Shown here: in pieces, positions 48,001 to 51,000 of the stretch
How positions within the stretch are numbered: position 1 is the first letter of the stretch
How the letters are laid out: every line of letters begins with the position of its first letter
NCBI RefSeq assembly: GCF_003991155.1
Contig: NZ_CP031293.1
DNA length: 64,000 bases
Direction: 5' to 3' (one strand)
From: Escherichia coli
Lineage (GTDB): Bacteria; Pseudomonadota; Gammaproteobacteria; Enterobacterales; Enterobacteriaceae
Position numbers: made by a program

Positions 48001-51000
48001 AAAGCGACGCAGGTCACCGTCGGTGATAATGCCCGCTAGCCCACCTTCTGCGTCTTCTACCATCACCATTCCCTGGCATCCGCTGGTGATACGTTGAATC
48101 ACGGTTTTAAATGACGCATCCAGCTGTACCGCAGGAACATCATGCAGCATGACATCAGCAACGCGGGTCAGCAGGCGACGACCTAATGAACCGCCCGGGT
48201 GATAGCGCGCAAAATCATTCGGCATAAATTTGCGTTGGTGGATCATGGCAATCGCCAGCGCATCGCCGATCGCCATCGTCAGCGTGGTAGACGTTGTTGG
48301 TGCAAGGTTATTCGGGCAGGTTTCATTCGCCATGTGGAGTTCCAGCACGGCATCAGCATTTTTCGCCAGCGTGGAATTTCCATTATTGGTCATGGCGATA
48401 ATTCGGTTGCCGAAATTTTTCAGTGAAGGAACTAGCTTGAGGATTTCATCCGTTTCACCGCTGGCAGAAATAAGGATCAGAAGATCGTAAGGCGTAATCA
48501 TGCCCAGATCGCCATGGAAAGCTTCTGCAGGATGAATAAAGAAACTAGGCGTACCCGTAGAGGCCAGCGTCGCTGACATTTTACGACCGACATGCCCTGA
48601 TTTACCCATTCCCGAAAGAATAACGTGCCCTTTACAGTTCATTATCAAATTAAGGACACGCTGGTACTGCCCGGAATCCAGTTGTTTAGACAAGTTTTGT
48701 AATGCTGCGCCTTGTTCTGCCAGAGTCTGGCGAACAGAGGTAATTAGATATGGATCGATAGTACTGCTCTGGTCATCAGGTAAATGTCTTTCAGACATAT
48801 CAGCTCCTTTGCACGGAAATAATGCCACAGTCACAACAAACCCGAACCCACTATAATTTATTTATGCTAAATCAATGGGTTGTAACAAAATTTTTAATGA
48901 ATATAAAACCATGGTCAGTCCATGCTTATATGCAGGACTTATCACCTTCTTATTAAGTCGCAATGTCTCATGGAGGTGCGAAGATGCTGCAATATTACAG
49001 GCGAGAAGGGGAACCAAATTTTGCCCACCTATTTAACACACCCCTACATTATGAACAAGGAATTTAGGATTTTTATCATTTATTAAAATGTTTCTCACTT
49101 GACTATTAAGACCAAAAACAATTTATCAATTGATTATTTCCTCGTAAAAAAAGAACGTATGACCATGTTATTAATAAATAAAACACGTAAATAATGGTGA
49201 TGTTGTTTTGTGATTAACTATTTAAAGCGGCATAATAAACAGGTTGACAATTTCTATGTAAAGAAGAGGAAAATAATAAAATTTTAGCGGTGACTATTGA
49301 ATGATATGATAGTTGTGATGTTGATTATTTCTGGTAATGAATGCGGAATTAAATCTGGCCGGATTGTATTTTTGCTATATCTGTTTTTCAGGAGATTATT
49401 ATTAAATAGAAAAATAACAGTGGTGATTATCTCCGGTTGAGCTGGAGTCACGTATGCCAGCGAGTGCTTTCTTCCGGGCCTTCCTTCACTTCAGATAAAG
49501 AGCCTATGGAAAAGAGGCAATCATCAGGCTCTTTTTGAGTCATATGCGCCGATAATCAACTGTCTTGAACGTAAAAATTATGGAGCAACATGATGCTACG
49601 ATTCATTTCACTCTTCGTTCTTTCTGAGCATTGCGTTCAGGATGGTCAGCAATTTACGCATACAGTCAACCAGCGCCACTTTTTTGGTTTTTCCGGCTGC
49701 TGACAGATGCATGTAAAATGCCTTTATCACCGGATTAAACCAGGTTACCACAAGCGCTGCCATGTGCAGGGCTGCTCTTGCCTCCGTACGCGCACTGGCG
49801 TCGTTCGGCCAGCAGATATGTGTGGGATTACAGGGATGTTATGTGAACTGAACTGTGTTTTGTTAACGGGGGATGTTTATTGATGATTCGGGAGTGTTTA
49901 AGACCTGATGGCGTTATGCTCCCAAGTTTATTTTATATAAAGATCCAAAAGCAAAAACCCGCCTTGTGGGCGGGTTCTTTAGAATAGTGGTGCCGGACTC
50001 GGAATCGAAGAATGCTTCTATCATGTTGATATTAGTTTATTTTGTTTGGTTTGGTGAAATATGTACCCTCTTTTGTACCCGCAGTCCCTTTTGATATCGA
50101 AAGGGAATCAAACTCGGGGTCAGGCTGAGAGCACAGAAGGAAAGTGCCTGGCTATTATATCGTTAATTCTGTCAATCAGCTCCAGCCTTTTGAAAGTGAT
50201 GTGTGCAGATCCCTTCTTAAAGTATTTAATGATGAACATCTCATCTTCATAGCGTCCTTTACCCTGAACGGACTGTATGTGGTCATCCAGATTAATGGTG
50301 ATATTCCCTCGGTTGTCGGGGATCGGTTTACCGCTGAGCAGATGCAACATTCTTTCCAGGTCAGCCAGGCGATCTGCCTGCATTCCACTGATAAGATGAA
50401 ATCCCCACTGGTCCCATCTCACCAGATTGTTGACGATAATTTTACTGCCAAATTTACAGGGTGAGTTGGTTTTGTAATCCCAGCTCAGCCCTTTGAAGAC
50501 GTTGATCACTCCCCGTTCAAACACTTCATCTTTGTTCTGGTGCAGTTGTTCAAATGTGCTCAGAATGTTCGCTTCGCTGATTTCCGGAAAATTATCATAT
50601 TCCAGTGACCTGGACCTGACTGAGGTGGAGCAGATAACGTCCGTATTCTCGTTGACCACTTCCGGACGGGAGACTGTGATTTCAGACATAATCGATATTC
50701 CTTTTTGCAGATAAATGAAAACGCCAGCCGTGTTCAGGCTGGCGTCAGTGGAATGAAGTCTGGTGAGTGAGATGATGAGTGAGACTCACCGGTTCTGGTG
50801 CTGAAGCTGCAGTTGGCGCAGGGTACGGATATCCTCTCTGGCCTGTTCGATACAGGGCAACAGTGCTGCTGAATCCGTTTTATCCTCATTGTTGTCAAAG
50901 ATAATTCCCGATTCGCAGTCGATATTGTCCTGCAGCCACGCAATCAGAATATCCAGTGCGGTTTCCGTGGTTAATGATTTCATGTTGTTCCTGGTTACCA

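What the first reader, a model, noticed from the sequence alone, without database searches (positions are those of the whole stretch)
49988..50009. tRNA-Phe 3'-end direct repeat marks a module boundary inside the pheV island region
A 22-bp sequence matching the reverse complement of the tRNA-Phe 3' end, with one base deleted, lies 110 bp beyond the last CP4-like gene. It is preceded by a GC-rich hairpin (AAAAACCCGCC...GGCGGGTTCTTT at about 49959-49986). This looks like the degenerate attR of the CP4-like element. The capsule locus therefore lies between this old att site and gspM, implying stepwise accretion of at least two modules at pheV. The intact tRNA and integrase would lie beyond the high-coordinate end of the window.
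Basis: partly seen in the sequence, partly recalled or inferred. Interest (0 to 1): 0.5.

Follow-up and report, generated by a model that had tools for sequence, protein, structure and literature searches.

The report
Far boundary of pheV pathogenicity island
This 22-base sequence is the displaced tail of the pheV tRNA gene, left with its terminator at the far end of a large E. coli pathogenicity island; it is a well-documented boundary, and the capsule genes beside it are a separate module.

Summary
Window 49988-50009 is the reverse complement of the last 23 nt of tRNA-Phe minus one base. It sits 8 nt from the native pheV terminator hairpin (49953-49979, minus strand) and 110 bp from the last island gene. 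In a genome differing at 2 of ~30,000 positions over kps plus island, intact pheV and a P4-type integrase lie 77 kb beyond, with no internal repeat. The exact gapped sequence is tabulated as the GI-pheV attR in PMC11537424. PMC10272209 describes the 22-bp repeats, the integrase and island losses. The capsule locus is a separate module. It has no repeat of its own, starts 47 bp past the tRNA end, and occurs without the island, as the island occurs without it. In this genome kps and the island end were nevertheless inherited as one recombined block.

One addition: the one-base gap is not random decay. It is in about 1,435 of 1,437 E. coli junctions, 99 of 103 metagenome remnants, pheU junctions, and at least 10 other genera next to their own terminators. 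Whether the island carries it or it is a selected mutation of the displaced fragment stays unresolved. Low interest as stated.

The parts
49988..50009 (-). attR core: the displaced 3' fragment of pheV (T-loop to CCA, 23 nt minus one G)
   Evidence: The same sequence is listed as the GI-pheV attR in PMC11537424 Table 1.
49941..49987 (-). Native pheV 3' flank retained beside the fragment. It contains the rho-independent terminator (stem-loop 49953-49979, T tract 49943-49952).
   Evidence: 43 of 47 positions identical to the sequence just downstream of pheV in K-12; the 4 differences are all in the 8-nt linker next to the tRNA end. Terminator scan, fold.
50010..50119 (.). Island-side arm of the junction (P arm). 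It contains tandem TGTACCC repeats (50062-50068 and 50074-50080) that are candidate integrase arm-type sites.
   Evidence: Conserved in pheV and pheU islands. The RTACCC-N6-RTACCC motif occurs once in the 64-kb window and once in 134 kb of Rb-3, the second time on the integrase-side arm. Analogous tandem repeats sit at the same distance in other genera.
50120..50689 (-). DUF4942 gene, the last gene of the island
   Evidence: RefSeq annotation of a genome 100% identical over the query stretch 47500-52500
50786..62558 (-). Distal flu/yee (CP4-44-like) module: DUF957, DUF5983, CbtA toxin, YeeU-family antitoxin, DUF987, JAB, antirestriction, DUF932, DUF905, IrmA, a frameshifted ORF, agn43 (58192-61314) and a GTPase (61686-62558)
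   Evidence: annotation transferred with offset +27499. The window and Rb-3 differ at 2 positions over 34-64 kb.
34882..48798 (.). Group 2 capsule (kps) locus, a separate module. kpsMT 34882-36323 (+). Region 2 at 36345-40357: galE, a 760-aa ORF and a CatB-like acetyltransferase. kpsSCUDEF 40839-48798 (-).
   Evidence: Low GC at 34-41 kb. JUMPstart at 34815-34853.
49608..49790 (-). IS110-family transposase remnant on the kps side of the junction. It travels with kps.
   Evidence: Present in every kps-positive genome fetched, whether or not it has the island
33290..33826 (+). yghD (gspM), the core gene that bounds the kps insertion on the other side
   Evidence: K-12 and the window diverge right at the yghD stop codon.

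Best explanation
The 22-mer is the distal attachment junction (attR) of a roughly 77-kb pheV-integrated genomic island of the GI-pheV / PAI V type.

A P4-family tyrosine integrase recombined the island's attP with the 3' end of pheV. The island supplies a replacement tRNA 3' end and its own terminator next to the integrase. The original T-loop-to-CCA segment was pushed to the far end of the island, still joined to the native pheV terminator (the GC-rich hairpin) and 47 bp of native flank. The 110 bp between the repeat and the last island gene is the island's P arm, with tandem TGTACCC repeats that probably bind the integrase's arm-binding domain.

The kps capsule locus is a different module. 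It replaced about 100 bp of the spacer between the pheV terminator and yghD. It has no tRNA-derived repeat and no integrase.

What is shown: sequence identity, both boundaries, the position of the tRNA and integrase in near-identical genomes, and the independence of the two modules. What is inferred: the recombination mechanism, arm-site function and excision competence.

The single-base gap is a conserved property of this junction family, not local decay. Its origin is unresolved.
For: - The 22-mer equals the pheV 3' 23 nt minus one G.
- The adjacent 47 bp match the K-12 sequence just downstream of pheV at 43 positions, including the whole terminator; the 4 differences lie in the 8-nt linker. 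The terminator is oriented with the tRNA fragment.
- In Rb-3 the stretch from gspE to beyond pheV holds exactly two copies of the motif, the tRNA and this fragment, 77 kb apart.
- The recombinase next to pheV has Arm-DNA-bind_3, Phage_int_M and Phage_integrase domains.
- All four site states exist. Both modules: this window. kps only: N63. Island only: OkiPb01708 and RM9245. Neither: K-12.
- About 1,437 of 5,426 complete E. coli genomes carry the full junction.
- Published descriptions match: the same attR sequence in PMC11537424 Table 1, and 22-bp repeats, intB and repeated island loss in PMC10272209.
Against: - The tRNA and integrase are outside the window. Their presence is inferred from genomes that are near-identical over kps and island but 2-5% divergent on the gsp side. 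The source genome itself is not in the complete-genome collection.
- No functional test of integration or excision is possible here.
- The arm-site assignment rests only on motif rarity and position.
Confidence: 0.93

Rival explanations
1. Sub-question on the gap, model 1. The missing base is carried by the island's attP. Strand exchange normally happens 3' of it, in the terminal GGCACCA. Every integration therefore writes a gapped repeat at the far end and leaves pheV intact. Rare exchanges 5' of the gap, or heteroduplex segregation, give the reciprocal exceptions.
For: - The same gap lies next to at least 6 different outer flanks and at least 12 island-arm variants in E. coli-type DNA.
- It is present at pheU composite junctions.
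- It is present in at least 10 other genera beside their own diverged terminators and unrelated island arms.
- All attR variants in PMC11537424 Table 1 keep GGCACCA and vary only to its 5' side.
- No full-length pheV carries the CFT073-type mark among about 1,847 empty-type sites.
- Only 5 of about 1,761 empty sites are gapped.
Against: - The repeat starts exactly at the first T-loop base. This is what a T-loop crossover with an island-supplied tRNA end predicts (canonical model: and the Islander abstract).
- Gapped full-length pheV exists in at least 2 E. coli lineages and in one Pantoea genome.
- Z247 has perfect repeats at both ends.
Confidence: 0.45
2. Sub-question on the gap, model 2. Crossover is in the T-loop (canonical). 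The gap is a mutation of the displaced chromosomal fragment. It persists at the locus through island turnover and is enriched because excision then regenerates a crippled 75-nt pheV, which penalises island loss (a lock or addiction effect).
For: - It explains naturally the gapped empty sites, the Pantoea full-length gapped tRNA-Phe and the rare perfect/perfect islands such as Z247.
- It fits the published T-loop sublocation for P4-like integrases at phe tDNAs.
- It fits the repeat beginning exactly at the T-loop.
Against: - It needs the identical one-base deletion to have arisen independently in more than a dozen chromosomal contexts and genera. The genome-contig scan required an exact match to the gapped 22-mer, so remnants carrying other changes there were not counted; the metagenome scan allowed only an optional base at the gap position.
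- Gapped empty sites, which would have to be the recipients, are only about 0.3% of empty sites.
Confidence: 0.4
3. The gap is neutral decay from a single ancient event, inherited vertically.
For: A displaced tRNA fragment has no known function. One deletion in a GGG run is an ordinary mutation.
Against: - No other change accompanies it in the 22-mer, even where the arm beside it has diverged to about 87% identity.
- It is present at pheU and in other genera with non-homologous flanks.
- 99 gapped against 4 perfect remnants in metagenomes.
Confidence: 0.08
4. The repeat belongs to the capsule module. That is, kps is itself a tRNA-integrated element and this is its att site.
For: Older tables list the capsule as part of 'PAI-pheV', including 18-kb 'islands' that consist of kps only.
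Against: - The repeat is present in kps-free genomes and absent from kps-positive, island-free genomes, where pheV is simply intact.
- There is no second repeat at the yghD side.
- kps begins 47 bp outside the tRNA.
Confidence: 0.03
5. The match to the tRNA is chance.
For: None.
Against: 0.01 matches expected at up to 3 mismatches. The adjacent native terminator matches K-12.
Confidence: 0

Closest known systems
GI-pheV attR, the '23-bp imperfect direct repeat' TTCGATTCCGAGTCCGG-CACCA (PMC11537424, PLoS Genet 2024)
   Same: Identical sequence including the gap. Same position at the end of the flu/yee module. Same intP4-type integrase next to pheV. [quoted passage not shown]
   Different: Nothing material. 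That paper does not discuss pheU or other genera, the terminator, attP, or where the gap comes from.
PAI V of UPEC 536 and the CC95 'PAI-V' (Schneider 2004 and Middendorf 2004, as cited in PMC10272209; summary table in PMC7545054)
   Same: An island between kpsF and pheV, bounded by 22-bp repeats, with a P4-like intB. It carries pgt and Ag43 and can be lost.
   Different: Cargo differs: here papGIII, cdiBA and pgt in the Rb-3 relative, against pix and K15 in 536. The broad 80-kb definition of PAI V536 includes the capsule, and under that definition this repeat is internal.
she PAI / SHI-1 of Shigella flexneri at pheV (Sakellaris 2004, cited in PMC10272209)
   Same: A pheV island bounded by the tRNA 3' end and an imperfect 22-bp repeat, excised by Int with a directionality factor. 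This description is from my own memory of the abstract; the paper was not available.
   Different: Different cargo and host. I could not verify its repeat sequence or its attP.
CP4-44 and CP4-57 cryptic P4-like prophages of K-12
   Same: CP4-44 carries the same flu/yee module. Both have P4-family integrases and tRNA or tmRNA targets. For CP4-57, excision alters the ssrA 3' end, which would be a precedent for model 2 (from my own memory of Kirby 1994, not verified here).
   Different: Different target genes, and much smaller decayed elements.
The 'displaced tDNA fragment' concept of Islander and Williams' three tDNA sublocations (PMC4383910; summarised in bioRxiv 10.1101/2020.11.02.365908)
   Same: The repeat runs from the first T-loop base to CCA. 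The island regenerates the tRNA. The fragment marks the island's end.
   Different: That framework predicts a faithful copy that decays at random. Here one specific one-base gap is almost universal.

Membership tests
tRNA-gene-integrated genomic island junction (attR / displaced tDNA fragment) | Direct repeat of the 3' part of the target tRNA gene at the island end | tested here: met
   22 of 23 nt, unique in the window
tRNA-gene-integrated genomic island junction (attR / displaced tDNA fragment) | Intact tRNA gene with an adjacent tyrosine integrase at the other end, in the same orientation | tested here: met
   Not inside the window. In Rb-3 (2 differences over 34-64 kb), pheV and the integrase lie 77 kb away on the same strand as the fragment.
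tRNA-gene-integrated genomic island junction (attR / displaced tDNA fragment) | The outer flank of the repeat equals the native downstream flank of the tRNA at empty sites | tested here: met
   47-bp flank, 43 positions identical to K-12 (terminator fully identical), and fully identical to N63 over the aligned stretch
tRNA-gene-integrated genomic island junction (attR / displaced tDNA fragment) | Related genomes show the unoccupied site | tested here: met
   N63 is within 1-2 SNPs per 3.4 kb of island-bearing MS20673. About 1,761 empty-type sites exist.
tRNA-gene-integrated genomic island junction (attR / displaced tDNA fragment) | Integrase-dependent excision and integration at these sites | not testable with these tools
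   Only literature statements are available
P4-family tyrosine integrase (intP4 / IntB) | Arm-binding N-terminal domain, central domain and tyrosine recombinase catalytic domain | tested here: met
   PF13356, PF22022 and PF00589, all above their cut-offs. The allele type (intP4.1-4.5) was not assigned.
Rho-independent terminator | GC-rich stem-loop followed by a T tract, downstream of and co-oriented with the gene | tested here: met
   11-bp stem, then TTTTTGCTTTT, 9 nt after CCA on the minus strand. Termination itself is not testable.
CP4-44-like flu/yee module | GTPase (yeeP-like), agn43, yeeR/S/T-like genes, CbeA/CbtA and the yeeW region, in that order | tested here: met
   RefSeq annotation of near-identical DNA. 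By annotation only.
kps locus as a tRNA-integrated element | Its own flanking tRNA-derived repeat and integrase | tested here: not met
   No second repeat at up to 4 edits. No integrase in or beside kps. kps starts 47 bp beyond the tRNA.

The most novel reading that the evidence does not exclude
The one-base gap in the displaced tRNA-Phe fragment is a conserved, functional signature of a broad Enterobacterales family of Phe-tRNA islands.

One possibility is that it is carried in attP. That would place strand exchange in the last 7 bp of the tRNA gene, contrary to the assumed T-loop crossover.

The other is that it is a convergently selected 'lock', so that excision leaves a crippled 75-nt pheV and island loss is penalised.

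The rare gapped empty sites and the rare perfect/perfect islands would be the reciprocal by-products.
Probability: 0.45. Interest if true: 0.4.

Novelty: already known. Interest (0 to 1): 0.12.

Why it matters
As stated, the finding only re-identifies a published island boundary. It is useful for annotation because it separates the mobile pheV island from the capsule locus, but it is not new.

The side result could matter modestly. If the near-universal one-base gap is carried by the island, it maps the integrase's crossover point without an experiment. If it is instead a selected lesion in the displaced fragment, it is a simple way for islands at tRNA genes to make their own loss costly. That would bear on why large pathogenicity islands are stably kept in ExPEC lineages.

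Tried and rejected
- **tRNA genes in the window:** ARAGORN found none, as expected for a 22-nt fragment.
- **Internal repeats that would show tandem accretion within the island:** none at up to 4 edits across 134 kb of Rb-3.
- **REL606 as a kps-free, island-bearing control:** rejected, because it carries kps remnants. OkiPb01708 and RM9245 were used instead.
- **Rb-3 as the source genome:** rejected. The gsp side is 2-5% divergent, and no complete genome matches window 12-37 kb better than 97.6%.
- **IMG/VR scan for either repeat form, hoping for a true attP:** zero hits.
- **Primary papers:** Schneider 2004 and Middendorf 2004 are not held, and no accessible paper gives sequenced attP/attB products for a pheV island.
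- **The K1 paper's 'intact pheV' after excision as evidence about the crossover:** set aside, because a gene-presence screen would probably not register a 1-nt gap (methods; my inference).
- **The ST131 island-replacement history as evidence for island-borne marks:** set aside, because replacement of the whole region by homologous recombination, as seen in this window, explains it equally well.
- **Rfam scan:** nothing at the junction itself.

Full report
**Observation**

Window 49988-50009 reads TGGTGCCGGACTCGGAATCGAA. The E. coli tRNA-Phe gene ends ...GGTTCGATTCCGAGTCCGGGCACCA. The reverse complement of its last 23 nt is TGGTGCCCGGACTCGGAATCGAA. The window copy therefore matches at 22 of 23 positions, with one C of CCC missing (one G of GGG in tRNA sense).

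The 22-mer is unique in the window even at 3 mismatches, with 0.01 matches expected by chance. No tRNA gene is present in the window.

The 23 nt are T-loop (7) + T-stem 3' strand (5) + acceptor 3' strand (7) + ACCA (4). The repeat therefore starts exactly at the first T-loop base.

The hairpin is at 49953-49979. It has an 11-bp stem and is followed on the minus strand by TTTTTGCTTTT. The folding z-score is -3.3. The last island gene (DUF4942) ends at 50120, 110 bp from the repeat.

**Context**

More than ten complete E. coli genomes are 100% identical to window 39001-64000. In strain Rb-3 the gene order is as follows:

- yghD (gspM)
- kpsMT, region 2, kpsSCUDEF
- IS110 remnant
- the repeat
- DUF4942, DUF957, DUF5983, cbtA, a yeeU-family antitoxin ... 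agn43, GTPase
- cdiBA, nanXY, pgt and pap (papGIII)
- a tyrosine recombinase
- pheV
- yqgA

pheV lies 77 kb from the repeat, on the same strand. The whole stretch contains only two copies of the motif, so there is no internal repeat. The recombinase has the Arm-DNA-bind_3 / Phage_int_M / Phage_integrase architecture.

**What the hairpin is**

In K-12, pheV is followed directly by CTAATTCTTAAGAACCCGCCCACAAGGCGGGTTTTTGCTTTTGGATCT, and about 100 bp later by yghD. The window carries this flank (49941-49987) next to the repeat. The terminator portion is identical, and 4 differences (3 substitutions and a 1-nt gap) lie in the 8-nt linker next to the tRNA end.

The hairpin is therefore the native pheV terminator, displaced together with the old tRNA end. 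On the island side, the intact pheV is followed by a different hairpin (AAACGGACCTCCACGGAGGTCCGTTT) that the island supplies.

**Boundaries and independence of the modules**

An alignment of eight junctions shows three things.

- All genomes share the terminator flank.
- To its left, kps-positive genomes read ...CAAGTTTATTTTATATAA, while kps-negative genomes keep the K-12 spacer.
- On the other side, the window departs from K-12 right at the yghD stop codon.

kps therefore replaced about 100 bp of spacer, 47 bp beyond the tRNA. It has no tRNA-derived repeat and no integrase.

All four site states exist:

| State | Example |
|---|---|
| Neither module | K-12 |
| kps only | N63 |
| Island only | OkiPb01708, RM9245 |
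| Both modules | this window |

However, kps is not an att-site integrant, and the order of arrival cannot be read from the structure.

**Prior knowledge**

PMC11537424 (PLoS Genet 2024) lists TTCGATTCCGAGTCCGG-CACCA as the attR of GI-pheV in 536, APEC O1, S88, ED1a, H10407, 55989, REL606 and others. Where no repeat is found, it ends the island at the breakpoint before kps.

Older tables use a broad PAI V536 of 80 kb that includes the capsule. The finding is therefore already known.

**Extra result 1: block inheritance**

Compared with Rb-3, the window has 2 differences over 34.0-64.0 kb. Over 1-33.8 kb it shows 2-5% divergence, rising to about 20% in sslE. The switch falls at the yghD/kps junction.

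No complete genome matches window 12-37 kb better than 97.6%. So kps and the island end reached, or left, this lineage as one homologously recombined block. The repeat is a structural boundary, not a boundary of recent transfer.

**Extra result 2: the gap is not random decay**

Evidence that the gap is near-universal:

- About 1,437 E. coli genomes carry the full junction. Only Z247, and probably D2, have an ungapped repeat beside this arm. Z247 has perfect 23-bp repeats at both ends.
- pheU islands carry the same gap. They have cadC and the yjdQ integrase remnant outside the repeat, and island arms 87-99% identical to the window's. The outer flank there is the island-type hairpin that also follows pheU in K-12. 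The pheU junctions are therefore tandem-accretion products.
- A metagenome scan that allowed either form gave 99 gapped and 4 perfect remnants. They involve at least 12 arm variants combined with at least 6 outer flanks.
- The exact gapped 22-mer occurs in 22 species-representative loci. These include Citrobacter, Pectobacterium, Edwardsiella and Limnobaculum, each beside its own diverged tRNA-Phe terminator, and Xenorhabdus, Budvicia, Sodalis, Brenneria, Rouxiella, Yersinia, Erwinia and Pantoea.
- Where the tRNA similarity stops at the T-loop, the otherwise unrelated arms all have a tandem 6-9-nt repeat with a 12-14-nt period, starting 50-58 nt from the core. The E. coli equivalent is TGTACCC x2 at 50062-50080, and a matching RTACCC-N6-RTACCC pair lies on the integrase-side arm. 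These look like arm-type sites of one broad integrase family.

Counter-evidence:

- Five E. coli genomes have a full-length 75-nt gapped pheV at an empty site. They come from at least two lineages.
- One of them, MS21324, is within 1-2 SNPs per 3.4 kb of both island-bearing MS20673 and the intact-empty N63.
- Pantoea sp. IMH has a full-length gapped tRNA-Phe.
- For the CFT073-type island family, whose attR carries a G-to-T mark instead of the gap, no full-length pheV carries that mark.

**Two models for the gap**

- **Island-borne gap.** The crossover would lie in the terminal GGCACCA. This explains the recurrence across sites and genera, but not why the repeat starts exactly at the T-loop.
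- **Canonical T-loop crossover.** This is the published framework. The gap would be a lesion in the displaced fragment, enriched because excision then yields a crippled tRNA. This explains the exceptions, but it needs many independent identical deletions.

I cannot separate the two with sequence data alone. Sequencing attP and attB after excision would decide it.

**Verdict**

The feature is already known, and interest as stated is low.

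Noticed in passing
window ~33826 (yghD stop / kps left junction); 1-33800 versus 34000-64000: Divergence from strain Rb-3 switches sharply from 2-5% (glc, sslE, gsp) to 2 differences in 30 kb (kps plus island end). kps and the island end were exchanged between lineages as one block by homologous recombination. No complete E. coli genome matches the low side better than 97.6%.
   Followed up: partly
window 50062-50080; L003 14162-14179: Tandem TGTACCC (or ATACCC) repeats with a 12-nt period on both arms of the att site, once each in 64 kb and 134 kb. 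Unrelated island arms in Xenorhabdus, Budvicia, Sodalis, Brenneria, Rouxiella and Limnobaculum have analogous tandem repeats at the same distance from the core. These are candidate integrase arm-type binding sites.
   Followed up: partly
L037 3548-3622 (MS21324); L038 3548-3622 (elppa9); also UPEC129, KE48, E17: Five complete E. coli genomes have a 75-nt pheV carrying the same one-base gap at an island-free site, annotated as tRNA-Phe. Its acceptor 3' strand is one base short, so it is presumably defective. These are likely excision products.
   Followed up: partly
L039 1605-1627 and 48322-48344 (strain Z247): A rare island with perfect 23-bp repeats at both ends, roughly 1-2 of 1,437 junctions.
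   Followed up: yes
L144 2192-2627 (K-12 pheU); L005-L007 ~2144-2522: pheU in K-12 is followed by the island-type terminator hairpin and an integrase remnant (yjdQ). The 'empty' pheU site is therefore an ancient attL relic, and newer islands have integrated in tandem beside it.
   Followed up: partly
window 34815-34853 (+): Rfam JUMPstart element containing ops (GGCGGTAGCGT), ending 29 nt upstream of the kpsM start codon at 34882. This is the expected RfaH-dependent leader of capsule region 3.
   Followed up: yes
window 36345-40357: Capsule region 2 consists of galE, a 760-aa unannotated ORF and a CatB-like O-acetyltransferase. GC content is about 30%. The K type was not identified.
   Followed up: no
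window 49608-49790 (-): An IS110-family transposase remnant sits between kpsF and the pheV terminator in every kps-positive genome examined, with or without the island. It may mark how kps arrived.
   Followed up: no
window 17000-20000: sslE (yghJ) is hypervariable, with up to about 20% divergence from Rb-3 against 2-4% in neighbouring genes.
   Followed up: no
window 14829-15050 (-) and 61333-61569 (-): Rfam hits to C0719 sRNA (297 bits) and to 'IS102 RNA' (74 bits). The second lies between agn43 and the GTPase gene.
   Followed up: no
window ~1760-5850: By homology to Rb-3, a cluster encoding serine palmitoyltransferase, an acyl carrier protein, an epimerase and a fatty acyl-AMP ligase lies next to yghO. 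This is an unusual lipid-synthesis set for E. coli.
   Followed up: no
L015 and L017 (Yersinia artesiana, Erwinia psidii): Longer tRNA-Phe remnants reaching the anticodon stem carry the same GGG-to-GG gap and a second one-base contraction in the CCCC run of the anticodon stem. Both flanks differ between the two genera.
   Followed up: no
L026 (Pectobacterium polonicum): The tRNA-Phe remnant has a compensatory double change in the anticodon stem (GAGGA/TCCTC instead of GGGGA/TCCCC) together with the gap. The fragment therefore came from a once-functional variant tRNA.
   Followed up: no
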